The translations under genes and the position numbers were made by a program. From a bacterium (GTDB taxonomy: Bacteria; UBA8248), in NCBI GenBank assembly GCA_965207065.1, contig OZ242260.1, forward strand, positions 2,976,001 through 3,040,000: a stretch of 64,000 nucleotides of DNA, given 5' to 3'. Below are positions 29,340 to 48,619 of the stretch, piece after piece; position 1 is the first letter of the stretch, and every line of letters begins with the position of its first letter. The notes under the pieces are model-generated. The model did not search any database and was not told where the DNA came from. It saw only the letters and a program-made list of their open reading frames with translations.

Positions 29340-31238
29340 TCAGGCGGGAAGGGCGATTCCCTCTTCCTCGGTGAGCCTGTCCCAATTCGCCTCGGTTCGT
29401 TTTTTGAGTTCATCCATGAATTCGCGTGTCATGAAGCTGGGCATTTTGACGTTTTCATTCGCCCCTTCATAGACGCGGGAGGGCACGTCGTATTCCTCGT
29501 CGGTATAGCCCACCTTTTTCTCCAGCAGGCGTCCTCTCAGGTAGGAACGCCGAATCGCCTGGTTCACGTCTTCTTCCGTCAACGAGACGCCGAACATATC
29601 GTTCAGGCTGTCGACGATATTCTCGTTGGGCGCGCCCGCGAATTTGCAAGTGCCGATGAGGTCGTCCCTCGTATAGTAGATGCCGTTCTGGATGGCGTTT
29701 TCCCAGTAATCGATGTCCGTCTGCTGGCCGTCGAGGATGAGGAGCAGGAACGTGCGCATGCTCATGTGGCCGCCTGCCAATGCCCAGGGGTAGCCGGGGT
29801 TTGTTTCGGGCAGATAGGCCGGGTATTCGAGGCCCTTGCCCTGCATAGCGAAGGATAGGTCGCCACACTGCTGGGCCAGACGCATGGTGCCCTGGGCCAG
29901 TTCTTCACACTCGCCCGCCGCTGCTTTGCGGATCAATTCATCCATCTTCCTGGCGTCGCCGAAGCGGATGTCGTCGAGCACGGGTTTGTCGGGGTTTTTC
30001 TCGTTCCACTCCATGGCGTAGCTTATGGTAGCGCCCAGGCTGATGGCGTCGTAACCCATCCGGTCGCCCAGTTCGACGAGATCCAGGGATTCTTCCGCAT
30101 CGTAGACGCCGCAGTTCGCCGTGATGAGGTCGAGCGGTTCATAGTCGAACTTGACCCTGAATTTTCCTTTTTTCGCCCGCCTGCCTTCGGCCGTCTCGCC
30201 CTCGGGCCTGTCGTAGATGTTTTTATGGCACGCGATGCCGCACTTGAAGCAGGATTCATCCTTGATGACGTAGGGTTCTTCAAAGCTGCCCCGGTACAGT
30301 TGAACGGCGTCATCGTTCCCCGGCGCCCAGAAGTTCCTCTCGGGCAGACAGCCCATGGGGTGGAGACCCGCGATGTTTCGCCAGGTTCCACCGCCGCCGT
30401 CCGCCTTATGGGCGTCTCGGTAGTTTTTGGAACCTGCGCCCCGTGAGATGACTTTGTTGGCCTCTTTGACGACATTCGTGACGGCGGCTTTGTCGTCTGG
30501 CGACTGCGCGACGATGGCGATGAGGTTTTTGGAACCCATCACGCCGCCGAAGCCGCCGCGTCCGCAGAACCTCGGCTTGCATTCCCTCGTTTTGAGCTGG
30601 TTTTCCGTGCTCAAGACAATGGACGCCATGCGGTTCGTCTCAAAATTCTCCCCCGGCGGGCCGATGACGGCGAAGTGCGCATCGTCGTATTCATCGGCGA
30701 GCGCCATCATTTTTTCATGCGAGTCTTGGCCCACAAGAGGAGAGGCGTCCACGAGTTCCAGGCTCGGCGGGCCGCCCAGGGTGTCGCTCTTGATAACCAG
30801 TGTGACGGGCTTCTCGCTCCTGCCGGTAAAGATGATTTCATCGATGCCCGCGCAGGCAACCTTGGTTCCGAATTTGCCGGAGCCTGCCGAGTACATAGCG
30901 GAAGGTGCGCCTGCGAGCGTGCTCTTGAGCGGACTGTAGCCGCCAAAGAACGTCCTCAGCCCCGTCATGAGGTTCGTACCAGAAAAACAGCCAAGTTCCA
31001 TGACGAGCGGGGCGGAAGGGGCATAGGGGTCAGATACGTCGTGATGGGAGAGGATTTTGAAAATCCTGCCGATCCCGCCCAGAAAATCCTCCAAATCCTC
31101 ACAGGATTTGTCTTCAATCGTGATATTTCCACTGTCCAGCTCAACGGTAGCGCTTCTATACTTGTAATCAGTTGCCGAGTTATTCCCGTTTCTGGCGTCT
31201 GTCCACATTTTTCTGCCTGCCTCCGATGAATATGCCAC
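29340..31238 (-). CDS. Aldehyde:ferredoxin oxidoreductase family (W/Mo-bis-pterin, 4Fe-4S)
   Basis: FLGGIG, YSPL, IGPPGEN, GRGGFGGVMGSKNL, CFKCGIAC, DRMGYDAIS, KGLEYPAY and DLIGTCKF motifs. Confidence 0.9.
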   Translation of the reverse strand: MAYSSEAGRKMWTDARNGNNSATDYKYRSATVELDSGNITIEDKSCEDLEDFLGGIGRIFKILSHHDVSDPYAPSAPLVMELGCFSGTNLMTGLRTFFGGYSPLKSTLAGAPSAMYSAGSGKFGTKVACAGIDEIIFTGRSEKPVTLVIKSDTLGGPPSLELVDASPLVGQDSHEKMMALADEYDDAHFAVIGPPGENFETNRMASIVLSTENQLKTRECKPRFCGRGGFGGVMGSKNLIAIVAQSPDDKAAVTNVVKEANKVISRGAGSKNYRDAHKADGGGGTWRNIAGLHPMGCLPERNFWAPGNDDAVQLYRGSFEEPYVIKDESCFKCGIACHKNIYDRPEGETAEGRRAKKGKFRVKFDYEPLDLITANCGVYDAEESLDLVELGDRMGYDAISLGATISYAMEWNEKNPDKPVLDDIRFGDARKMDELIRKAAAGECEELAQGTMRLAQQCGDLSFAMQGKGLEYPAYLPETNPGYPWALAGGHMSMRTFLLLILDGQQTDIDYWENAIQNGIYYTRDDLIGTCKFAGAPNENIVDSLNDMFGVSLTEEDVNQAIRRSYLRGRLLEKKVGYTDEEYDVPSRVYEGANENVKMPSFMTREFMDELKKRTEANWDRLTEEEGIALPA

Positions 31239-31341
31239 ATGGAATTCTAGAGTTATATTATTTGCGATTGATTGTTTTTCTCAGCCCGTGATTATTCCGT
31301 GTTTTGCCTTGTTGGGCAAGCCGACGGACGTGGTAAGGATT

Positions 31342-32928
31342 TTAGAAAGCTACAGGCTCTTGAAATTCTCCAAAAACGCCACGGAGCACGTCCGTTATCT
31401 CCCCGATAGTGGCATATGCTTCCACCGCCTCGGAAATCGCCTCCATGAGATTCTCATCGCCTCGGGCGGCGTCTTCCAGGCGTTTGAGACTTAGTTCTGC
31501 CTGTGAAGTGTCTCGCTCTTTCTTCAATTTATTCAGTTGTTTCTTCTGACGCTCTTCAAGCGCAGGATCAATCGTGAATATTTCTTGTGCGGGAGGCTCC
31601 TCCCGCATATATTTATTTACGCCGACGATAGTCTGCTCATGTGCATCCACCGCTTTTTGCCAGCGGAAAGCGCTCTCTGCTATCCATTTTTGCACTACGC
31701 CTCTTTGAATGCACTCAACCATGCCGCCGCGTTCTTCCACGTCTTCAATAATTTGCGCCATTTCATTTTCCATGCTTGCAGTTAAATTCTCCAGATAATA
31801 TGAACCACCAAATGGGTCCGCCACATCGGGGACGCCGCTTTCATGGGCAATGATCTGCTGGGTGCGCAGGGCGAGAAGAGCGCTATCTTCGGTCGGCAAG
31901 GCCAGTGCTTCGTCATATGCACAAGTAAAGATGGTTTGGGCGCCTCCGAGCACGGCGGAAAGTGTCTCGTAGGTGACTCTGACGATATTGTTCTCGGGTT
32001 CTTGTGCAGTTAGCGTACTCCCGCCACAAACGACGCCGAAGCGGAATAGCCAGCTTCTCTCGTTTATAGCGCCAAAACGCTCACGCATGATTTTTGCCCA
32101 AAGCGTCCGCATGGCTCTGTATTTGGCGATTTCTTCGAAAAAATCCATGTGGGTGTAAAAATAAAAACTGAGCCTGGGGGCGAACTCGTCGATATCAAGT
32201 CCGCGGTCCAGACATCTCTCTACGTAAACGATGGCGTCCGCGAGCGTAAAACCGCCTTCCTGGACGGCAGTTGCGCCGGCATCCCTGAAATGAGCTCCTG
32301 CAGCGCTGATGGTATTGAACCTCGGAGTGTTTTTCACCCCGTATTCAACAGTATCGACGATCAGCCTTAAGGATGGCTCGGGCGGGAATATCCATGTGCC
32401 GCGGGAAACATATTCCTTCAGAATGTCGTTCTGGATGGTGCCGGTTAGTTGAGCGGGCGAAACGCCTTGTTTCTTGCCGACTGCGACGTACATGGCATAA
32501 AGGATGGCGGCCGTTGAGTTGATGGTGAAGGACGTGCTGATCCTGTCGAGCGGAATATCTTGAAAAATGGTCTCCATATCCGCCAGTGAGTCGATGGCTA
32601 CCCCGACTTTGCCGACTTCGCCGGATGATTTTTCATTGTCGCTGTCGAGTCCCAGTTGTGTCGGGAGGTCGAGGGCGACGGAAAGCCCGGTGTTCCCCTC
32701 GTCTAGTAGAAAGCGGTATCGCTGATTCGTATCTTCGGCGGTTCCGAAACCCGAATACTGGCGCATCGTCCACAAGCGTTTTCTGTACATCTCGGGGTGA
32801 ATGCCGCGCGTGAGAGGATATTCGCCTGGTTTGCCAGGGGAATTGCCCGGAGGCAAATCTCTCAGGCCGTACGTGTTTTCAACGGCGAGACCTGAACGAG
32901 TTTTTATCTGTGGGGGTTCTTTTCCCAT
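31342..32928 (-). CDS. B12-dependent acyl-CoA mutase, substrate-binding large subunit (methylmalonyl-CoA mutase family, no cobalamin-binding domain)
   Basis: PGEYPLTRG, WTMRQYSGFG, GLSVALDLPTQ, GTIQNDILKE, YDEALALPT and DPFGGSYY motifs; no DxHxxG. Confidence 0.92.
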   Translation of the reverse strand: MGKEPPQIKTRSGLAVENTYGLRDLPPGNSPGKPGEYPLTRGIHPEMYRKRLWTMRQYSGFGTAEDTNQRYRFLLDEGNTGLSVALDLPTQLGLDSDNEKSSGEVGKVGVAIDSLADMETIFQDIPLDRISTSFTINSTAAILYAMYVAVGKKQGVSPAQLTGTIQNDILKEYVSRGTWIFPPEPSLRLIVDTVEYGVKNTPRFNTISAAGAHFRDAGATAVQEGGFTLADAIVYVERCLDRGLDIDEFAPRLSFYFYTHMDFFEEIAKYRAMRTLWAKIMRERFGAINERSWLFRFGVVCGGSTLTAQEPENNIVRVTYETLSAVLGGAQTIFTCAYDEALALPTEDSALLALRTQQIIAHESGVPDVADPFGGSYYLENLTASMENEMAQIIEDVEERGGMVECIQRGVVQKWIAESAFRWQKAVDAHEQTIVGVNKYMREEPPAQEIFTIDPALEERQKKQLNKLKKERDTSQAELSLKRLEDAARGDENLMEAISEAVEAYATIGEITDVLRGVFGEFQEPVAF

Positions 32929-32935
32929 CTTGCGA

Positions 32936-33715
32936 TTATCTCCCCTTGAAAACGGGGTTTCGCTTTTCGAAAAATGCTTTTACCGCCTCATCATGATCTT
33001 CTGACACCCAAAGATCTGCAAATAGCGACGATTCCATACCCTTCGTTTCATTCAGTGTATTTTCTAATCCGAATAAGAGCAATTCCTTCAAAGAGCGGAT
33101 AGCCGTCGGCGCGCTTTTGGTAATTTCATCCACCATCGCTTTCGCGACGCGAAGACCGTCTCCTTTGTGTACCACGGCGTTGGCAAGTCCCATCTTGAGC
33201 GCATCTTGGGGGCTCAGTTCTTTGCAGGTGGTCAACAATTCCATCGCGCGTCCATAGCCGATAGCGCGGAGAAGACGACCCCCGCCTCCCCAACCCGTCA
33301 TGAGGCCGACGCGGGCTTGCTTGAAGCTCATGTAGGCGTGTTCTTCGATTATTCGCATGTCACAGGACATGGCGATTTCGGTCCCACCGCCCAGAGCGTA
33401 TCCATTCAAAACGGCGATGACAGGCACTGGCAATTCGGACAGACGCCCCAGGATTCCCTGCATGCGTCTGCTCATCCCCAGACCCGCCTCGTGAGATTCA
33501 AATGACTGTAGCCACTTCAAGTCGCCGCCTGAGCAGAACGCCTCCTCGCCCGCACCCGTGAGGACGACGGCTCTCAGTTCTCGAGATGCTTCGAGGTTGA
33601 CCAGGGCGTCTGAGAGCCCCTGCATGATTTCTTCGTTGATGGCGTTGCGAACGTTTTTTCTGTTGAACTTCAGGATGGAAAGTCCGCCCTCGGCTTCATG
33701 AATAAAATCGGGCAT
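32936..33715 (-). CDS. Enoyl-CoA hydratase/isomerase (crotonase) superfamily protein
   Basis: AFCSGGDL, NGYALGGGTEIAMSCDMRI and AFFEKRNPVFKGR motifs. Confidence 0.9.
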   Translation of the reverse strand: MPDFIHEAEGGLSILKFNRKNVRNAINEEIMQGLSDALVNLEASRELRAVVLTGAGEEAFCSGGDLKWLQSFESHEAGLGMSRRMQGILGRLSELPVPVIAVLNGYALGGGTEIAMSCDMRIIEEHAYMSFKQARVGLMTGWGGGGRLLRAIGYGRAMELLTTCKELSPQDALKMGLANAVVHKGDGLRVAKAMVDEITKSAPTAIRSLKELLLFGLENTLNETKGMESSLFADLWVSEDHDEAVKAFFEKRNPVFKGR

Positions 33716-42914: not shown

Positions 42915-43577
42915 TCATTTCGCCCGTACGATGAATGCCCCGTACCCGTTGCGCTGCAGCTTTTCCACCAATCGCTTCGCTTTACTCTCGCCGACAAGGC
43001 CTTTGATCTGCACGTGGTAGTGGGCGTAGTTTCCATGCCACCCGGGCCGAATTTCCGACGTTGTGCCGTTTCTATGAAAGTAATCGGCGAATTCTTGCGC
43101 CTCCGGTTTTTCCATAAACCCGCCCACCAGGATCATCCACTTGGGGTTCGGCTCTCGGGGAATATAGAGGGGTTCAATGGAAACCTCGGTGGTGCCCCTG
43201 CGCAGCATCCCGATTCTACGGGCCGCCTCTCGAGAAAGGTCGATAACGCGGTTTATGAAAAAAGGCCCACGATCGTTGATTCGCACTTGCACTACCCGCC
43301 CATCGTCGCTTCTACGAACTCTGACGATGGAACCGAAGGGCAGGGTGCGGTGCGCGGCGGTGAGGGCGTGCATGTCGTAGGTTTCACCATTTGCCGTTTT
43401 GCGCCCGTGGTAGGGATTGCCATACCACGAGGCGATGCCGTGGGTACCGCCCCCTTCGATGTCATCACTCCTTTGAGTGGGCAGAAAGCTGCATCCACTC
43501 AGGAGAAAGGAAATTGCGAGGCTGATGATAAGAGCCCGCAAGGGGAGAGCATACGAAGGGTTGGTCATTAAATTCAT
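42915..43577 (-). CDS. rlpA: Septal ring lytic transglycosylase RlpA family lipoprotein with SPOR-like domain
   Basis: Lipobox LSGC; GIASWYG, TAAHRTLPFG, INDRGPF and IDLSREAA motifs. Confidence 0.9.
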   Translation of the reverse strand: MNLMTNPSYALPLRALIISLAISFLLSGCSFLPTQRSDDIEGGGTHGIASWYGNPYHGRKTANGETYDMHALTAAHRTLPFGSIVRVRRSDDGRVVQVRINDRGPFFINRVIDLSREAARRIGMLRRGTTEVSIEPLYIPREPNPKWMILVGGFMEKPEAQEFADYFHRNGTTSEIRPGWHGNYAHYHVQIKGLVGESKAKRLVEKLQRNGYGAFIVRAK

Positions 43578-43700
43578 CGGGATACGTCTGGGGCGGATTT
43601 CGTAAAAAGACGAAGTTATTATATCAGTTTCATCCGGCGCTGCCATAGAAGCGCGTCTTTCGGACGAATTTTGCAAAATCGCGGTTATCGTGGCCTCATG

Positions 43701-44342
43701 CTAGTTTCGGTGCCTGGAGAATGCCTCACCAATGCTCATGCCTTTATCGAGTTCCGCGATGATTTTTTCTTCGATTTCCGCCAGCTCATCCATCTTGTCG
43801 ATGACTTCTTCGAGCCTTTCCCCGGGGATGACGACAACGCCGTTGACGTCGCCAAGAATGATGTCTCCCTGCCTCACCGCGACGCCCCCGCAATTGATCG
43901 GCTCTCCCACACTGATGGGAACCGTATACCCACCGCTGCCGTGAACCGATACCCCTCTGGCGAATACGGGAAAACCCGCCTGGCGGTGTTCTTCGATGTC
44001 CCTTGCCCTGCCGTCCAGGACGACGCCACCTAAATTCATCACCTTCGCGCGCGTGGTCATCATCCCGCCCCAGTTGGCCGTCGTGACTCCGGGCGGGATG
44101 CTGATGACGACGATGCTCCCCTCGGGCGCCGCGTCGATGTGGTGTACCTCGCGTTTGGGCAGCGGTCCGCCGCCGGCGGGAACCATTCGAACGTTATGGG
44201 CTTCCCCCACCATCCTGTAATCCGGGTCGGGCGACAACAGGATGATGTCGGGCATGTGGCCCCTGATTTTCAATTTGTCAAAAGCGTCCGCTACCTGACA
44301 GGCTGAATAGCCCCTTAAGCGATTTACCAAGTCATTGCTCAT
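43701..44342 (-). CDS. RraA/HMG aldolase family protein
   Basis: VADAFD, ANWGGMM, DGRARD, FPVFA and GDIILGDVNGVVVIP motifs. Confidence 0.9.
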   Translation of the reverse strand: MSNDLVNRLRGYSACQVADAFDKLKIRGHMPDIILLSPDPDYRMVGEAHNVRMVPAGGGPLPKREVHHIDAAPEGSIVVISIPPGVTTANWGGMMTTRAKVMNLGGVVLDGRARDIEEHRQAGFPVFARGVSVHGSGGYTVPISVGEPINCGGVAVRQGDIILGDVNGVVVIPGERLEEVIDKMDELAEIEEKIIAELDKGMSIGEAFSRHRN

Positions 44343-44427
44343 GAAATTCTCCTGAATCAGTCGTGCCGGAAGAAATTGGCGTCAAATTGTGAAGGGAATG
44401 ATACTCGTTTCGTCGAAAGATTGGGGT

Positions 44428-45180
44428 CTAAAAACGGAATTCCGTAAAGCGTACGCCATCCGGGTCGAGTTCCTCCAGGGCATCCAGTTCTTCGGCGCTT
44501 GGCGCGTGGGTTTGCGCCACGACGCTCGGGCGTTCCAGTTCGAAGCCGGTATTCTTGATCACTTCATCCACCGAGTGTCCAGGGTGAACACTGGCAATCT
44601 CGAGCCCGGTGGATTTTTTCTCGAACAAGGCAATGGGCGTCACCAAGTGGCTCAGTCTGCCTGATTGGGTAGAGAAGTCGACCCGGGGTACGAGAAATCG
44701 CCTGTCGTGCACAGTTCGCCATATGACGGTGCGTTTCACCTGAGGCATGATGACGGCGCCTCCCCCTCCACCGGGAAGCCTCACTTTCGGCTGGAACGGG
44801 TCGCCGATGTAGCTCATGTTGGCTCGCCCTTGTTTGTCGAGTTGAGCGGCTCCCAGGAAAGCCATGTCCACCCCGCCGCGCGCAAAAAGATCGTACATGT
44901 CCGGGTTGTAGAACATAGATGCCGCACCGTGGCAGAGTTCAGGGTCGGCCGTGCTGTTCGGCATGAAGCGCGGTTTTGGGTCCACCGAACCAGCGACTTC
45001 TATGAGCGAGCAATTGGGGGCATGTCGTTTCTTGGCCAAAAAGATCGCGATCATGGGAAGCGGGGAGTTAACCCCGTGAAACACATTCTCGCCGTCTTCG
45101 ATGAGGCGCGAGAGCGTGACGGCCATCTGGTTTCCGGCGCGGATTACGTGCTCGGGCAACGAGGCCAGGCGGCTGCCCAT
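44428..45180 (-). CDS. Class I CoA-transferase-fold beta subunit (GctB/PcaJ-like)
   Basis: FLGAAQLDKQGRAN, RLPGGGG, LVTPIALF and SVHPG...NTGF motifs. Confidence 0.88.
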   Translation of the reverse strand: MGSRLASLPEHVIRAGNQMAVTLSRLIEDGENVFHGVNSPLPMIAIFLAKKRHAPNCSLIEVAGSVDPKPRFMPNSTADPELCHGAASMFYNPDMYDLFARGGVDMAFLGAAQLDKQGRANMSYIGDPFQPKVRLPGGGGGAVIMPQVKRTVIWRTVHDRRFLVPRVDFSTQSGRLSHLVTPIALFEKKSTGLEIASVHPGHSVDEVIKNTGFELERPSVVAQTHAPSAEELDALEELDPDGVRFTEFRF

Positions 45181-45182
45181 CG

Positions 45183-46010
45183 CTAATTTGTCACCGCATC
45201 TTGTGCGTGTGATTCGTCGGTGCTGGCCAGATATTCCCGAAGCCCGTTCTGGCTTTGGGTCAAGGTCATGTAACGACTCATTTCAGTTTTGTCGACCCCA
45301 TAGTATGGGTGGCAACTGCAGGGAGACGCCCCGCCCGGCGTTTCCACGACTGCTTTGACGAGGAAGCCTGGAATAGTGGTTCTCTCCGGTTCCGCTGCGA
45401 TCTCTTCAGAGCCAACGATTTTTTCGGTCGTGAGAATGACCCCTTTTTGCGCCGCGCGCGTCATTTCAACGTCGAATTGCTGGTTGCCCAGGATTTGCGC
45501 GTTTCCCTGCGGGTCAGACTTCTGGACGTGTATCAATGCCCAGTCCGGCTTGAGAGCGGGAATCGCATAGAGTTCCTCTTTCGTGTAGGGGTCTTCCATC
45601 GTGAAGATGCCGCTTTGCTCCGGGATGTCGCTCCCGTCGAAACCGCGAATGGGCTGGAAGGGAACGCCGTAGGCTGCGGCCCGCAGCCCAGCAAGAACGC
45701 TGGCTCAGGCGTGCTCGGTCAGGCCGGCAAGTCCTTTCTCTATCGCCTTCCGGTAGTGAGGCGCCAATCCGAATTCCGCCTCGAAGGTGACGATGCCGCT
45801 GATGATTCTCTTCACGGCCCCTGCGGCGCAAAGGAGATCGGCGTCGTAACCGGGAGAGGGTTTGATGAGCGTGAGATCCCGAAGGTCCGCGCGCGCGATT
45901 TCACGGATGAGGGCGGCGGGCGTTCTGTGCAAGAGGGTGCCGCCGGGACTTATTGCGTCTCCTCCTTCAATGAGAGAAACGGCTTCTCGTAAGGACATTT
46001 GCTTGCTCAT
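45183..46010 (-). CDS. Class I CoA-transferase-fold alpha subunit with in-frame TGA at codon 102; candidate selenoprotein (275 aa on readthrough)
   Basis: ORFs 45705-46055 and 45183-45599 are in the same frame, joined by ...LTEHA[TGA]ASVLAGLRAAAYGVPFQPIRGFDGSDI...; downstream PDWALIHVQKSD..GNA and PGGASP motifs. Confidence 0.8.
45666..45692 (-). promoter_or_regulatory. Candidate bacterial SECIS element
   Basis: mRNA GCUG-GGCUGCG-GGC-CGCAGCC-UA-CGGC at +13 to +39 after the UGA; 7-bp perfect upper stem; G-starting apical loop at +24. Confidence 0.55.
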
Positions 46011-46242
46011 GGCAGCTTCCATCCACTCGTTTTGGGCGCATGATGTGGGCAACACAAATTATGGGGCATAGTTTAACAAATGTTGATGATTTGTGCTTGC
46101 GCTCATGCGCCTTCATGCCGTCAGAGAAGTGAATTTGACGCATTCATTGACCGAGAACCCGGTGTGGCGTAAATATCGATGAGATGAGAGTTGCTCTCAT
46201 GCGCAAGTATACTTCCAGATGAATCAATCGAAGGAGCATGGA

Positions 46243-46755
46243 ATGCCACGGATTTCCTTGTTAGAGCCCGAGCAGGCGGAAGCATCCGCGAAACGCATCA
46301 TGGAGAATCTGAAAAAACAATTCGGTGTCGTGATTCCGCCTGTGAAGGCACTGGCCCACAAACCGGATTTTTTGCGTTCTTTGCTGAGCTTGACCACGGT
46401 GGCGGACGGCCCGGGGGAGATCGACGTCGGCTTCAAGGAAATCTTGAACATTCGCGCATCGGTGCTCAACGGGTGTCATTTTTGCACCAACATGCATTCC
46501 AACATGGCAAGGATGCACAAGGCAGGAGACGAGAAGACGAAAGCCGCGCAAGAGGGTTCCTCGAGTGACGTCTTCGATGAGAAGGAGAAGGCGGCGCTTC
46601 GCCTTTGCGAGGAGAGCACGCAGGGGGTGAGCGTTTCGGACGGGACGTTTGAAGCGCTGAAGGCACACTATTCTGAAGCGCAGATAGTGGAGCTTCTCGG
46701 CGCCATCGCACTCATCAACACCTGGAATCGACTGATCGTGGGAATGGGCTTTTAA
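46243..46755 (+). CDS. Carboxymuconolactone decarboxylase / AhpD-like protein
   Basis: KEILNIRASVLNGCHFCTNMH, EKEKAAL, QIVEL and NTWNR motifs; AAGGAG RBS. Confidence 0.9.
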   Translation: MPRISLLEPEQAEASAKRIMENLKKQFGVVIPPVKALAHKPDFLRSLLSLTTVADGPGEIDVGFKEILNIRASVLNGCHFCTNMHSNMARMHKAGDEKTKAAQEGSSSDVFDEKEKAALRLCEESTQGVSVSDGTFEALKAHYSEAQIVELLGAIALINTWNRLIVGMGF

Positions 46756-46802: not shown

Positions 46803-47981
46803 TTAGAGGCTTAATGCGGCCCTGCTGACCGTGAGTTCGGTTTCTCCGAGAAGCTCCGATGTCGTGAGTTTACCGCTCATCACCGCTATCAGTTCTTTTT
46901 CGAGCAGATCTCTCGCCTCATCGATTCGCATCGTCCCCTCCATGACGCCGCTGATGTCCACGTCGATGTTCTCGGCCATCGACCGCGCGGTACGGGGATT
47001 GCCGGTCACTTTGATGGTGGGAGAGATGGGATGGCCGATGGGGTTGCCGATTCCGGTCGAGAAAACGATCGCCTGCGCTCCGCTGGCCGCCAAAGAGGAA
47101 ATGTTCTCTACGCCCGCGCAGGGAGCGTCGGCGAAGATGGTGCCTTTCTTCGAAGGACGCTCTCCCACACCGACGACTTCGACAATGGGGTGACTGCCCG
47201 CTTTCTTGATGGCTCCCAGGCTTTTCTCCTCGATGGACGACAGACCGCCCCGGATGTTATCCGGCGCCGGGTTCGAGCCGATGAAGTCGACGCCGATGCT
47301 TTCGGCGTAATCGACGGCGCTCTTTGCGGAATCGATGATTTTTCGCGCCGTTTTTTTGTTTGTAGCCCGGCGGGCGAGTAGATGCTCGGCGCCCACGATT
47401 TCCAGCGTCTCGGAAAAGATAACCGAACCCCCCGCTTCCACGACTCTGTCGGCGACCATGCCCGTCACGGGGTTCGAGATGACGCCGCTGGTCGTATCCG
47501 AGCCTCCGCATTCCGCCCCGATGGTGAGTTCGCCCAACTCACAGCGGACTCGCTTGGCCGATGCGAGATGGGCGGAAAGTTTCGTGGCGAGTTCCACGAC
47601 ATGCGAGGTGGTGCTGAGCGTGCCTCCAATCTCCTGGATGTTCACGGCTTCTATGGGCATCCAGGGAGACGTTTTTGCGGCTACTTCCGCGATGGCGTTG
47701 GCGCTCTTGGGTTCGAGGCTCACGATGATGGCGGCCCCGACGTTCGGGTGGGCGGCGGTGTGTCCCATAACCCGCCAGTGTTGCGTCTCGTCCTCGCCCA
47801 TCAGGGCGCGTCCGAACGAGGTGTTGACAGGGGTGGCGTCTCGCACCAGCGAACCGATTCTGCGGACGATGGGGTTGGAATTGTCCATTCCGCTGACGAT
47901 GGCGAGATGATTCCGGCCACCCGGAGGACCTTCAAGTCTCCTGTAGCCCCAGAAAGTGGGAGTTGCTTTTTTCCGGGCCAT
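46803..47981 (-). CDS. UxaA/GarD/SuyB family lyase, large subunit (sulfolactate sulfo-lyase beta-like)
   Basis: FWGYRR, HPNVGA, ECGGSDTTSG, FSET, GGLSSIEEKSLGA and FSTGIG motifs. Confidence 0.85.
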   Translation of the reverse strand: MARKKATPTFWGYRRLEGPPGGRNHLAIVSGMDNSNPIVRRIGSLVRDATPVNTSFGRALMGEDETQHWRVMGHTAAHPNVGAAIIVSLEPKSANAIAEVAAKTSPWMPIEAVNIQEIGGTLSTTSHVVELATKLSAHLASAKRVRCELGELTIGAECGGSDTTSGVISNPVTGMVADRVVEAGGSVIFSETLEIVGAEHLLARRATNKKTARKIIDSAKSAVDYAESIGVDFIGSNPAPDNIRGGLSSIEEKSLGAIKKAGSHPIVEVVGVGERPSKKGTIFADAPCAGVENISSLAASGAQAIVFSTGIGNPIGHPISPTIKVTGNPRTARSMAENIDVDISGVMEGTMRIDEARDLLEKELIAVMSGKLTTSELLGETELTVSRAALSL

Positions 47982-47983
47982 GC

Positions 47984-48256
47984 CTAGCCTCTTGTGCTCT
48001 TGATGTTATGGACGTGAACGTGACAGCCTGCGGGTATTTCTTGTGTGGCGGTGCCGATGACCTCGCCGTATTTGAGCACTTTTGCGTTCGAGCGGATCTT
48101 GCGCAGCGCAATTTTGTGTCCAAATGGAATGGATTCAGTTGCGGATAGCGTGATTGTCTCATCCCCGCCTTCGATTTCCACGCTATGCCCTGAGGAGACG
48201 TCCTCGAGAACAGTGGCCACGTTGTCTTTCGGGTGCATCACCAGCGCTCGGCTCAT
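47984..48256 (-). CDS. SAF-domain small subunit of the UxaA/SuyA family
   Basis: HPKDNVAT, IPFGHKIAL, KYGEVIG and HVHVHNIKS motifs. Confidence 0.88.
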   Translation of the reverse strand: MSRALVMHPKDNVATVLEDVSSGHSVEIEGGDETITLSATESIPFGHKIALRKIRSNAKVLKYGEVIGTATQEIPAGCHVHVHNIKSTRG

Positions 48257-48277: not shown

Positions 48278-48619
48278 CTAGTCGTCGCTTCCGACATTAC
48301 CGGGGAGCCTCAACCGCAGCCGCTCGACGGGGCGGCCGTTTTTCAAGTGTTCCTCGATGACTTCGGGAACGTCCTCCACCTTTACGCCCGTGTACCAGAC
48401 GCCCTCGGGGTAGACGACCAGGGTGGGGCCCATCGTGCACGGACCCAGACAAGTGGCGCCTGCCATGGCCGTATCCGAGGCGAGTTCGTCATCCGAGCCA
48501 ATCGCCTCCGTGATCGCTTGCGCGACCTCGATGCTGCCCTTGCTCTGGCAACAGCCCATCGGGTGAGTCGGCGGGCGTTGATTGATGCAGACGAAAACGT
48601 GTCTTTTGATGTGTTCCAC
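48278..48619 (-). CDS. Thioredoxin-like [2Fe-2S] ferredoxin
   Basis: HVFVCINQR...GCC, CLGPC and VYPEGVWY motifs; GTG start. Confidence 0.9.
   Translation of the reverse strand: MEHIKRHVFVCINQRPPTHPMGCCQSKGSIEVAQAITEAIGSDDELASDTAMAGATCLGPCTMGPTLVVYPEGVWYTGVKVEDVPEVIEEHLKNGRPVERLRLRLPGNVGSDD

What the first reader, a model, noticed from the sequence alone, without database searches (positions are those of the whole stretch)
43701..46010. Beta subunit lacks the canonical catalytic Glu, suggesting a non-transferase activity in an operon with an RraA/HMG aldolase
Seen: the beta subunit reads APNCSLIEVAGSVD. Established (sequence from recall): GctB reads APDCHIIVESGLMD, with Glu54 as nucleophile. 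An ungapped alignment puts Val at that position and the Glu one residue earlier. AibAB/LiuBC (decarboxylase) and IpdAB (ring-cleaving hydrolase) are precedents for losing this Glu and changing chemistry. Inference: alpha(Sec), beta and the aldolase form an undescribed pathway in which Sec replaces Glu as the catalytic group.
Basis: partly seen in the sequence, partly recalled or inferred. Interest (0 to 1): 0.7.

Follow-up and report, generated by a model that had tools for sequence, protein, structure and literature searches.

The report
Selenocysteine CoA-transferase-like enzyme without catalytic glutamate
A two-subunit enzyme built like a CoA-transferase has lost the glutamate that such enzymes need and instead carries a conserved selenocysteine (cysteine in relatives) in its active site, so it probably performs a different, still unknown reaction on a CoA-bound acid.

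Summary
The beta subunit (44428-45180, minus strand) reads HAPNCSLIEVAGSVD. Val62 occupies the column of GctB's catalytic Glu and of AibB Cys56; Glu61 sits one residue earlier. None of 119 close beta homologues has Glu in that column.

The residue before it is not conserved (E, N, S, T, G or H). The partner alpha subunit has an in-frame TGA at codon 102, in the column where 6co6_A and 6coj_A differ (E/A; recalled as IpdA Glu105). In 172 relatives that column is Cys 130, TGA 13, Glu 23.

The TGA very likely encodes selenocysteine. Sec-type genes carry a specific hairpin (34 of 35, against 1 of 58 Cys-type). The genome has selA, selB, selD and tRNA-Sec, and Sec arose at least twice on the family tree.

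Relatives usually sit beside a family III CoA-transferase, an acyl-CoA ligase and an enoyl-CoA hydratase. I therefore read the pair as a non-transferase enzyme acting on an acyl-CoA, with Sec/Cys as the catalytic residue.

The link to the RraA-like gene is local. It is absent from one sister genus and from all 76 more distant loci. Substrate and reaction remain unknown.

The parts
45183..46010 (-). alpha subunit, CoA-transferase family (PF01144), 275 codons including one in-frame TGA
   Evidence: PF01144 at 6.2e-21. Best PDB sequence hits are AibA, IpdA and GctA at about 1e-32 to 1e-29. The stop TAG lies 2 nt before the beta ATG.
45705..45707 (-). TGA, codon 102 of alpha, read as selenocysteine
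   Evidence: TGA is at this codon in 18 of 18 related genome loci. It is also there in 11 more divergent same-family loci, 4 Burkholderiales genomes and 2 metagenome contigs. The column is Cys in 130 of 172 relatives. It aligns with the E/A difference between 6co6_A and 6coj_A. selA, selB, selD and tRNA-Sec are in the genome.
45672..45688 (-). SECIS-like hairpin GGCUGC-GGGCC-GCAGCC, starting 16 nt after the UGA
   Evidence: The motif GGCTGC-N2-6-GCAGCC is present in 34 of 35 Sec-type genes and 1 of 58 Cys-type genes. It is invariant at synonymous sites in 19 sequences. RNAalifold pairs these columns.
44428..45180 (-). beta subunit, CoA-transferase family (PF01144), 250 aa
   Evidence: PF01144 at 7.4e-19. 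The AF2 model has pLDDT 90.9. VIA-align gives AibB Z 30.0, GctB Z 26.3, IpdB Z 25.3 and CtfB Z 19.3.
44980..45024 (-). beta motif HAPNCSLIEVAGSVD: Val62 (44995-44997) in the canonical catalytic-Glu column, Glu61 (44998-45000) one residue earlier
   Evidence: Searches place the columns. In 120 homologue rows, column 62 is V 75 and I 44; column 61 is E 64, N 42, S 9, T 2, G 1 and H 1. In the model the strand spans 58-61 and V62 opens the loop.
44755..44781 (-). beta glycine-rich loop RLPGGGGGA (residues 134-142), retained
   Evidence: P136, G137 and G140 are invariant and G138 and G139 are at least 90% conserved in 94 rows. The variants all keep PGG. That this loop binds or polarises the CoA thioester in class I CoA-transferases is recalled knowledge.
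43701..44342 (-). RraA-like / HMG-aldolase-family gene, 85 nt downstream of beta; functional link unproven
   Evidence: PF03737 at 5.2e-31. No NCBIfam model reaches its cut-off. For synteny counts.
46219..46755 (+). AhpD/CMD-family CxxC protein, divergent from alpha
   Evidence: PF02627 at 5.1e-14. Weak hits to NCBIfam (seleno)protein YciW/AhpD-related models fall below cut-off. It lies next to alpha in 18 of 18 close loci and 7 of 14 divergent loci.
46803..48256 (-). split UxaA/GarD-type dehydratase: large subunit 46803-47981 and SAF small subunit 47984-48256
   Evidence: GD_AH_C at 1.8e-79, GD_AH_second and SAF. Present in only 3 of 14 divergent same-family loci and 1 of 76 distant loci (L068).

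Best explanation
The alpha and beta genes encode a heteromeric enzyme of the GctAB/AibAB/IpdAB branch of class I CoA-transferases that no longer transfers CoA.

- The beta subunit keeps the fold and the glycine-rich loop. Its nucleophile column holds Val62.
- The neighbouring Glu61 is a clade-specific polar residue, probably part of the substrate pocket.
- The only candidate catalytic residue conserved through the family is the alpha residue 102. It is selenocysteine here and cysteine in most relatives, and it is preceded by a conserved Glu at position 99.
- It lies in the column that in IpdA holds a Glu, mutated to Ala in one deposited variant.

Inferred: an acyl-CoA, most likely of a hydroxy-, oxo- or unsaturated di- or tricarboxylic acid, is made by another enzyme and binds across the alpha/beta interface. 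The selenolate/thiolate then acts on the acyl part. My preferred version is covalent nucleophilic catalysis, either addition to an activated C=C or attack on a carbonyl or thioester. Proton transfer to an enolate, as proposed for AibB Cys56, is the main alternative.

Shown: the columns, the conservation, the Sec decoding signals and the gene contexts. Inferred: CoA-ester binding, the catalytic role of Sec and the reaction class. The RraA-like gene is a neighbour, not a demonstrated partner.
For: 1. Val62 sits in the catalytic-Glu column. None of 119 homologues with a residue there has Glu.
2. Column 61 varies: E 64, N 42, S 9, T 2, G 1, H 1. A syntenic orthologue with RraA has Gly (L175).
3. 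The alpha column in 172 rows is Cys 130, TGA 13, Glu 23 and other 6. Glu three residues upstream is at least 95% conserved among the 143 Cys/Sec rows.
4. The Cys/Sec rows form one clade (SH-aLRT 98; 82 Cys and 9 Sec of 112 rows) with the Glu-type rows outside. Sec needs two changes, each inside a starred clade.
5. Sec decoding is supported:
   - TGA in 18 of 18 close loci.
   - The hairpin in 34 of 35 Sec genes against 1 of 58 Cys genes.
   - selA 579 bits, selB 386 bits, selD 334 bits (itself with one TGA) and tRNA-Sec 75.9 bits.
   - selA in 3 of 4 TGA-type Burkholderiales genomes.
6. The Sec column is the one where 6co6_A and 6coj_A differ E/A.
7. Of 42 relatives' loci of at least 6 kb, 33 hold an AMP-binding ligase, 26 a family III CoA-transferase and 16 an enoyl-CoA hydratase. 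The usual order is CoAT3-(ECH)-alpha-beta-ligase. This resembles CaiB/CaiC/CaiD logic and, in L056-L058 (ECH plus MDR reductase), LiuC/AibAB/AibC logic; both comparisons are recalled.
8. The nearest structures are AibB (Z 30.0, rmsd 3.2 Å, 239 aligned), GctB (Z 26.3) and IpdB (Z 25.3). Working transferases score Z about 19.
9. Precedents for losing the beta Glu with a change of chemistry: PMC7756340 passages (AibB Cys56 replaces the Gct Glu) and PMC5380842 passages (GCT Glu54-beta corresponds to Gly57-beta in IpdB, and no CoA transfer was seen).
Against: - No activity, ligand or coordinate-level evidence exists. The tools return no model coordinates, so the distance of Sec102 or Glu61 to a bound thioester was not measured.
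- Near the window's own cluster I saw no CoA ligase or family III transferase in the ORFs scanned against Pfam (28-59 kb). The acyl-CoA source is therefore unknown here.
- Neighbours here and in several relatives point to sugar-acid or hydroxy-acid metabolism: a UxaA-type dehydratase, RraA-like, PfkB kinase, LarA and PdxA-like genes. The substrate might not be a CoA ester at all.
- Glu61 is conserved in the window's own clade (64 of 120 rows) and could still be catalytic there.
- Selenocysteine is a poor general acid and is nearly always redox-active in known selenoproteins (recalled). A redox role is not excluded.
- The hairpin lies in codons for a conserved peptide (GLRAA).
- The single-sequence fold energy was not unusual (z -1.31).
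Confidence: 0.6

Rival explanations
1. AibAB-like decarboxylase or isomerase without covalent catalysis. The pocket bends a carboxylated or unsaturated acyl-CoA, and the alpha Cys/Sec only delivers or removes a proton at the enolate, as proposed for AibB Cys56.
For: - AibB is the closest structure (Z 30.0) and the best sequence hit (1.4e-35).
- PMC7756340 passages: calculations support Cys56B as general acid for the enolate.
- Burkholderiales Sec-type loci carry ECH plus an MDR reductase next to the pair, like LiuC/AibC (recalled).
Against: - The thiol is in the other subunit and another column than AibB Cys56.
- AibB C56A/S/N/V variants kept activity (PMC7756340 passage). In contrast, the alpha column here is kept as Cys or Sec in all 91 rows of the Cys/Sec clade of the 112-row tree.
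- Two independent Cys-to-Sec changes fit a nucleophile or redox centre better than an acid, given the low pKa of a selenol (recalled).
Confidence: 0.22
2. Ordinary CoA-transferase in which the shifted Glu61 still reaches the thioester and forms the glutamyl-CoA intermediate. Sec102 would be accessory.
For: - Glu61 is directly next to the canonical column at the end of strand 58-61.
- It is conserved in the window's clade.
- The glycine loop is intact.
- No other CoA-activating gene was seen next to this cluster.
Against: - Column 61 is N, S, T, G or H in 55 of 119 homologues, and Gly in a syntenic orthologue.
- No homologue has Glu in column 62.
- A canonical Glu-type pair exists elsewhere in the same genome (L135).
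- Relatives are flanked by dedicated CoA-transferases or ligases.
Confidence: 0.08
3. Sec102/Cys is a redox or regulatory residue, for example a selenenyl-sulfide with CoA-SH or with the neighbouring AhpD-like CxxC protein, rather than the catalytic group of the acyl-CoA reaction.
For: - Nearly all known selenoproteins are redox proteins (recalled; the family table in PMC13188914, seen only as passages around search terms).
- An AhpD/CMD CxxC gene is divergently adjacent in 18 of 18 close loci and 7 of 14 divergent loci.
- A thioredoxin-like [2Fe-2S] ferredoxin and a DUF255 thioredoxin-domain gene are nearby.
Against: - No second conserved Cys was seen in either subunit. None appears in the list of columns at least 95% conserved in alpha or among the invariant and at least 90% conserved columns of beta.
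- The CMD gene is not next to the pair in genus g9. Among the 76 distant loci it gave only weak hits about 6 kb away in 2 (L086, L101).
- The column is catalytic in IpdA (recalled).
Confidence: 0.07
4. The TGA is a true stop: a pseudogene or a split alpha subunit.
For: Gene callers split it. Close relatives appear in the protein database only as 166-167 aa C-terminal fragments.
Against: - The frame stays open on both sides, with 82-95% protein identity across 18 loci.
- The TGA is at the same column in two separate clades.
- Cys occupies the column in homologues.
- The hairpin is Sec-specific.
- The genome has full Sec machinery.
Confidence: 0.03

Closest known systems
AibA/AibB, 3-methylglutaconyl-CoA decarboxylase of Myxococcus xanthus (PDB 5MZW-5N03)
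   Same: - Best sequence and structure match for both subunits: beta 1.4e-35 and Z 30.0, alpha 2.8e-32.
- The beta subunit lacks the catalytic Glu.
- It acts on an acyl-CoA made by other enzymes (PMC7756340 passages).
   Different: - AibB has Cys in the canonical column; here it is Val.
- AibA has Gly where this alpha has Sec.
- Only about 32% identity.
- No LiuC/AibC-type neighbours in this window.
IpdAB, COCHEA-CoA ring-cleaving hydrolase of steroid catabolism (PDB 6CO6, 6CO9, 6COJ, 6CON)
   Same: - The beta subunit lacks the Glu: Gly57-beta, PMC5380842 passage.
- The alpha subunit carries the functional residue in exactly the column of Sec102, where 6co6_A and 6coj_A differ E/A.
- The role of Glu105 is recalled; the 2018 PNAS paper is not held.
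   Different: - Glu rather than Sec/Cys.
- On the alpha tree the Glu-type rows lie outside the Cys/Sec clade.
- Beta similarity is lower (Z 25.3, 21-23% identity).
- There is no steroid-catabolic context.
GctAB, glutaconate CoA-transferase of Acidaminococcus fermentans (PDB 1POI)
   Same: - Same two-subunit fold and the same HAP...G motif frame.
- Beta Z 26.3.
- The glycine-rich loop is kept.
   Different: - GctB has the nucleophilic Glu (..IIVESG..); here the motif is ..LIEVAG...
- GctA has Gln in the Sec column.
Bacterial selenoproteins with Cys homologues and a bSECIS hairpin
   Same: - In-frame UGA aligned with Cys.
- Hairpin 16 nt downstream of the UGA.
- selA, selB, selD and tRNA-Sec are present.
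   Different: - The fold is not a known selenoprotein family. The terms 'PF01144', 'acyl', 'glutaconate' and 'hydrolase' do not occur in the main text of the 2026 review PMC13188914.
- 'CoA' occurs there only for three other families (CoA-disulfide reductase, HgcA, a crotonase-type DsbA-like protein), and 'transferase' twice, for GST-like proteins.
- No NCBIfam model reaches its cut-off.

Membership tests
Class I CoA-transferase, catalytically competent (GctAB/ScoAB/AtoDA type) | Two PF01144 subunits or domains with the class I fold | tested here: met
   PF01144 in both ORFs. The beta model aligns to GctB at Z 26.3 and to CtfB/AtoA at Z about 19.
Class I CoA-transferase, catalytically competent (GctAB/ScoAB/AtoDA type) | Nucleophilic Glu in the beta subunit (ESG/ENG/EGG motif column) | tested here: not met
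   Val62 is in that column. None of 119 homologues has Glu there.
Class I CoA-transferase, catalytically competent (GctAB/ScoAB/AtoDA type) | Glycine-rich loop (GxGG) of the beta subunit | tested here: met
   RLPGGGGGA is present. P136, G137 and G140 are invariant in 94 rows.
Class I CoA-transferase, catalytically competent (GctAB/ScoAB/AtoDA type) | CoA transfer through a glutamyl-CoA thioester | not testable with these tools
   Needs an enzyme assay and borohydride or hydroxylamine trapping.
AibAB-type acyl-CoA decarboxylase | Cys in the canonical beta column (AibB Cys56) | tested here: not met
   Query V62 aligns with the C56 variant position.
AibAB-type acyl-CoA decarboxylase | Closest overall sequence and structure | tested here: met
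   phmmer 1.4e-35. VIA Z 30.0, rmsd 3.2 Å, 239 aligned, 32% identity.
AibAB-type acyl-CoA decarboxylase | Operon partners that make and consume the enoyl-CoA (ECH and MDR reductase) | tested here: not met
   Neither lies beside the pair in the window; the only ECH seen there is about 11 kb away. Both lie next to the Sec-type pair in L056 and L058.
IpdAB-type ring-cleaving hydrolase | Conserved Glu in the alpha subunit (Glu105 column) | tested here: not met
   The same column holds Sec/Cys. Glu-type alphas fall outside the Cys/Sec clade.
IpdAB-type ring-cleaving hydrolase | Steroid-catabolic gene context | tested here: not met
   The Pfam and NCBIfam names of the neighbours (RlpA, RraA-like, CMD, UxaA-type dehydratase and others) include no steroid-catabolic gene that I recognise.
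Bacterial selenoprotein | In-frame UGA aligned with Cys in homologues | tested here: met
   Cys 130, TGA 13 of 172 rows. TGA in 18 of 18 close loci.
Bacterial selenoprotein | SECIS-type hairpin just downstream of the UGA | tested here: met
   GGCUGC/GCAGCC stem in 34 of 35 Sec genes against 1 of 58 Cys genes. RNAalifold pairs it. The single-sequence energy z is only -1.31.
Bacterial selenoprotein | selA, selB, selD and tRNA-Sec in the genome | tested here: met
   All four score over their curated cut-offs.
Bacterial selenoprotein | Selenium in the protein | not testable with these tools
   Needs 75Se labelling or mass spectrometry.
RraA / HMG-CHA aldolase family (the neighbour gene) | PF03737 domain | tested here: met
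   5.2e-31, 108 bits.
RraA / HMG-CHA aldolase family (the neighbour gene) | Equivalog-level match to CHA/HMG aldolase | tested here: not met
   TIGR02798 scores 60.9 bits against a cut-off of 304.5; NF006731 scores 67.4 against 179. The best PDB hits are uncharacterised proteins.
RraA / HMG-CHA aldolase family (the neighbour gene) | Functional coupling to the alpha/beta pair | tested here: inconclusive
   Adjacent in 18 of 18 and 9 of 14 same-family loci. Absent from genus g9 and from 76 of 76 distant loci.

The most novel reading that the evidence does not exclude
This is a widespread, polyphyletic selenoenzyme family in the CoA-transferase fold. The alpha-subunit selenolate (thiolate in Cys forms) makes a covalent Se-C or selenoester intermediate with an acyl-CoA. 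It would be a non-redox, carbon-centred use of selenocysteine, giving a new reaction type beside the transferase, the AibAB decarboxylase and the IpdAB hydrolase.
Probability: 0.3. Interest if true: 0.85.

Novelty: new variant of a known kind. Interest (0 to 1): 0.62.

Why it matters
Class I CoA-transferases are defined by a glutamate that carries CoA. Only two offshoots are known to have dropped it and changed chemistry: the AibAB decarboxylase and the IpdAB hydrolase.

This pair belongs to a third, large offshoot:
- It is found in 43 of 51 genomes of its phylum sample.
- It is found in 8 of 201 sampled genomes of the order of G001, which I call Burkholderiales from the names of protein hits and one record title.
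- It is found in 68 metagenome loci.

The invariant residue of this offshoot is a Cys in the other subunit, and at least two lineages upgraded it to selenocysteine. Selection for selenium marks that residue as chemically essential and gives a ready experimental handle (U/C/A variants).

The family is annotated everywhere as 'glutaconate CoA-transferase', and its Sec forms are split by gene callers. Both its function and its genes are therefore currently misdescribed. I did not find it in the selenoprotein literature I could search.

Tried and rejected
- **Single-sequence fold.** Folding the 63 nt from 3 nt before the TGA gave z -1.31, no better than shuffles. I relied on the comparative test instead.
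- **First small hairpin after the TGA.** It pairs in different registers in different clades, so I do not count it.
- **First AF2 run.** The 20-row alignment A1 gave pLDDT 56 and was discarded. The 94-row run was used instead.
- **L027 and L028** from the genome scan. L028 proved to be a Glu-type alpha; L027 gave only 34% matches and no usable ORFs. Neither was used for the Cys/Sec family.
- **IpdAB structure paper.** The 2018 PNAS paper is not held, so the role of Glu105 is recalled.
- **Literature search for a Cys-type or Glu-less CoA-transferase-like enzyme.** It returned nothing.
- **The search of earlier findings.** Searches by place and by sequence gave nothing.
- **Complex prediction.** Not run. 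It accepts only code-11 proteins, so the Sec alpha cannot be sent. I also did not expect it to return residue distances.
- **NCBIfam names for neighbours of relatives.** Only the PIG3-type quinone oxidoreductase subfamily model passed its cut-off. No neighbour reached an equivalog cut-off, so no substrate could be named.
- **RNA-library contigs.** They cover only 45657-45834, 45257-45505 and 43610-43956. The uncovered parts say nothing, and such libraries can hold DNA.
- **ORF picking in high-GC loci.** It was imperfect: alpha or beta was missed in some rows. Neighbour counts are therefore lower bounds.


Full report
**What is there**

On the minus strand lie, in order:
- a thioredoxin-like [2Fe-2S] ferredoxin gene (48278-48619);
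- a split UxaA/GarD-type dehydratase (SAF small subunit 47984-48256, large subunit 46803-47981);
- on the plus strand, an AhpD/CMD-family CxxC gene (46219-46755);
- then alpha (45183-46010), beta (44428-45180), an RraA-like gene (43701-44342) and an RlpA gene (42915-43676).

Alpha ends with TAG two bases before the beta ATG. RraA starts 85 nt after beta, and RlpA 24 nt after RraA. Alpha and beta each match PF01144. No NCBIfam model reaches its cut-off for either.

**The observation**

Beta reads HAPNCSLIEVAGSVD (residues 53-67).

The column assignment rests on alignments that need no gap between the shared (H/Y)AP anchor and the motif.

1. phmmer aligns beta to five AibB PDB sequences that differ at a single position (C, A, S, N, V), and that position falls on V62.
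   - One search lists these entries as AibA/AibB and its C56V, C56N, C56S and C56A variants.
   - PMC7756340 (passages read) states that AibB Cys56 replaces the conserved catalytic Glu of glutaconate CoA-transferases.
2. The window's own genome holds a canonical paralogue (locus L135, beta ..HAPGVTILFEGG..).
   - Its best PDB hit is GctB (2.9e-43).
   - Its Glu aligns with the GctB Glu and with the AibB C56 column.
   - The same Glu aligns with window V62 by tblastn and by MAFFT.
3. In the 94-row alignment A2, column 62 is V 47, I 46 and E 1; the E is that paralogue.

So Val62 holds the nucleophile column and Glu61 lies one residue earlier, as reported.

In a confident AF2 model (pLDDT 90.9) residues 58-61 form a strand and V62 opens the following loop. 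I could not obtain coordinates, so side-chain directions were not measured.

**Is Glu61 a displaced nucleophile?**

Among the 120 best beta homologues (45-100% identity; one row has a gap here):
- column 62 is V 75 and I 44;
- column 61 is E 64, N 42, S 9, T 2, G 1 and H 1.

Glu is confined to the window's clade (49-100% identity); the large 45-51% group has Asn. A syntenic orthologue that still has RraA downstream has Gly (L175). A residue that varies like this while the rest of the site is kept is more likely a pocket or specificity residue than the catalytic nucleophile. I cannot exclude a role in the window's own clade.

The glycine-rich loop RLPGGGGGA is retained. P136, G137 and G140 are invariant in 94 rows.

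**The alpha subunit**

Alpha has one in-frame TGA at codon 102. phmmer against the PDB aligns this position with:
- Gly in AibA;
- Gln in GctA;
- the only position at which the IpdA chains 6co6_A and 6coj_A differ, E versus A.

From recall this is the published E105A variant of the catalytic Glu105. The chain index is 117, which fits a 12-residue tag. The paper itself is not held.

In an alignment of 172 alpha sequences the column is Cys 130, TGA 13, Glu 23, His 2 and one each of G, A, S and N. Those rows were the proteins of at least 240 aa plus genes read from loci. Among the 143 Cys/TGA rows the Glu three residues upstream is at least 95% conserved.

I built a tree of 112 rows. Rows at least 88% identical to a kept row were dropped, and it was a quick IQ-TREE search with SH-aLRT support only. 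It puts all 82 Cys and 9 Sec rows in one clade (98) with the Glu-type rows outside. Sec needs two changes:
- one clade holds the window, its relatives and two metagenome contigs (100);
- a second holds three Burkholderiales genes (98), sister to a Cys protein (99).

**Is the TGA selenocysteine?**

- TGA stands at codon 102 in 18 of 18 related genome loci, with the frame open on both sides.
- It also stands there in 11 more divergent same-family loci, 4 of 8 Burkholderiales hits and 2 metagenome contigs.
- Sixteen nucleotides after the UGA lies GGCUGC-GGGCC-GCAGCC.
  - The pattern GGCTGC-N2-6-GCAGCC occurs in 34 of 35 Sec-type genes. The exception keeps the pair as G·U.
  - It occurs in 1 of 58 Cys-type genes, although both types encode the same peptide there.
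  - RNAalifold on 17 Sec-type sequences pairs these columns. Overall 14 pairs are predicted, 3 of them with compensatory changes, mostly in a first small stem whose register is not constant.
- The genome has tRNA-Sec (75.9 bits), selB (386), selA (579) and selD (334, itself with one TGA), all above cut-off.
- selA is present in 3 of 4 TGA-type Burkholderiales genomes.
- Contigs from RNA libraries cover the TGA without change (45657-45834, two runs). This is only weak support for expression.

I put the chance of a true stop at about 3%.

**Context in relatives**

*Burkholderiales and metagenome loci.*
- A search of 201 Burkholderiales genomes found the Cys/Sec alpha in 8. A metagenome scan gave 68 loci.
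- Of the 42 loci of at least 6 kb, an AMP-binding acyl-CoA ligase is present in 33, a TctC-type receptor in 29, a family III CoA-transferase in 26, an enoyl-CoA hydratase in 16 and an IclR regulator in 14.
- The usual order is CoAT3-(ECH)-alpha-beta-ligase. ORF picking was imperfect, so these are lower bounds.
- Three Sec-type Burkholderiales loci (L056-L058; Pfam names checked in L056 and L058) add an MDR reductase. Four loci carry LarA/LarB/LarC and HupE next door.
- The NCBIfam best hits of the family III transferase are succinate-glutarate and succinyl-CoA:mesaconate transferases, both below cut-off.

Two dedicated CoA-activating enzymes beside the pair make a third transferase redundant. 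The layout recalls CaiB/CaiC/CaiD and LiuC/AibAB/AibC, where the enzyme in the middle transforms the CoA ester (recalled comparisons).

*The window's own surroundings.* The ORFs I scanned against Pfam between 28 and 59 kb include no such activating enzyme next to the cluster. A methylmalonyl-CoA mutase and an ECH lie about 11-13 kb away.

**The RraA-like gene**

- It follows beta in 18 of 18 close loci and in 9 of 14 more divergent loci of the same family, where beta is 59-78% identical.
- In those loci RlpA and DUF255 are conserved too, so this is general synteny.
- The UxaA-type dehydratase is present in only 3 of the 14.
- In genus g9 (5 loci) the order is alpha(Sec)-beta-alpha2(Cys). A divergent HyuA/HyuB pair, RidA, SDR genes, and in single loci an MFS transporter or a CoA_binding_2 gene lie around it.
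- In g9 an RraA orthologue at E <= 1e-20 is missing from 4 of 5 genomes (90-98% complete). The fifth has only a 31%-identical hit.
- None of the 76 distant loci has an RraA homologue. One has a UxaA-type dehydratase.

The RraA-like protein itself reaches no NCBIfam equivalog cut-off, and its best PDB hits are uncharacterised proteins. A shared pathway is possible but not supported.

**How it most likely works**

Shown:
- the fold;
- the missing Glu;
- the retained glycine loop;
- the invariant Cys/Sec with its upstream Glu;
- its coincidence with the column where 6co6_A and 6coj_A differ (recalled as IpdA Glu105);
- two gains of Sec;
- the CoA-activating neighbours.

Inferred:
- The enzyme binds an acyl-CoA at the alpha/beta interface.
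- Residue 102 is the catalytic group.

I favour covalent nucleophilic catalysis, because replacement of Cys by Sec has been selected twice and a selenolate is both a better nucleophile and a better leaving group. Proton transfer to an enolate, as argued for AibB Cys56 (PMC7756340), is the main alternative. The substrate is unknown; neighbours point to hydroxy-, oxo- or unsaturated di- or tricarboxylic acids.

**Comparison and novelty**

The pair fails the defining test of a working class I CoA-transferase. It also fails the residue tests of both AibAB (beta Cys) and IpdAB (alpha Glu), although it is closest to them.

As a selenoprotein it meets every test available here. I did not find it in the literature I could search:
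- Full-text searches for selenoprotein with CoA-transferase terms returned nothing relevant.
- The 2026 review PMC13188914 has no PF01144 or CoA-transferase entry in its main text; only passages around search terms were seen.
- Term searches of PMC12013277 and PMC2398784 were negative.
- I opened no paper's supplementary tables, and they could list it.

Three earlier notes of this scan describe the same Sec-alpha family in other genomes. They are AI notes, not independent evidence.

My rating is a new variant of a known kind, with interest 0.62.

Noticed in passing
own genome G000:C1 ~839-842 kb (L134) and ~144-147 kb (L135), outside the window: The genome holds three GctAB-like pairs. They are the Sec/Glu61 pair of the window, a Cys-type pair (alpha VEHAC, beta YLNIPGG) next to a PfkB kinase and two Amidohydro_2 genes, and a canonical Glu-type pair (beta ILFEGG, alpha His in the Sec column) next to UbiD and LysR genes.
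   Followed up: partly
L168-L172 (genus g9 of the same family), e.g. L169:7243-9667: Three-gene arrangement alpha(Sec)-beta-alpha2(Cys): one beta gene flanked by two alpha paralogues. A divergent hydantoinase/oxoprolinase-type HyuA/HyuB pair lies nearby, with a best NCBIfam hit to caprolactamase beta below cut-off. The metagenome contig L064 has the same layout.
   Followed up: partly
L076, L091, L092, L095: LarA-like, LarB-like and LarC genes and a HupE/UreJ nickel transporter sit directly beside Cys-type alpha/beta pairs. This hints at a 2-hydroxy-acid substrate.
   Followed up: no
own genome G000:C1:543537-544499: The selD gene itself contains one in-frame TGA, so it is probably a Sec-containing SelD.
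   Followed up: no
window 46219-46755 (+): An AhpD/CMD-family protein with NGCHFC (CxxC) is divergently transcribed from alpha. It weakly resembles NCBIfam 'YciW-related (seleno)protein' (78 bits against a cut-off of 310). It is conserved next to alpha in most same-family loci but not in g9.
   Followed up: partly
G211:C191:2407-3117 and G001:C7:72719-73468: Two further family members with one in-frame TGA inside the match: a beta-paralogue hit and a Glu-type-like alpha hit. Neither was examined.
   Followed up: no
L056:9037-10433 and L058:6859-7842: In Sec-type Burkholderiales loci, alpha and beta are separated by inserted genes. L056 has a UDG-family gene and an EamA transporter; L058 has an EamA transporter.
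   Followed up: no
window 29340-33715 (-): Genes for an aldehyde:ferredoxin oxidoreductase, a methylmalonyl-CoA mutase and an enoyl-CoA hydratase lie 11-15 kb from the pair. No link was examined.
   Followed up: no
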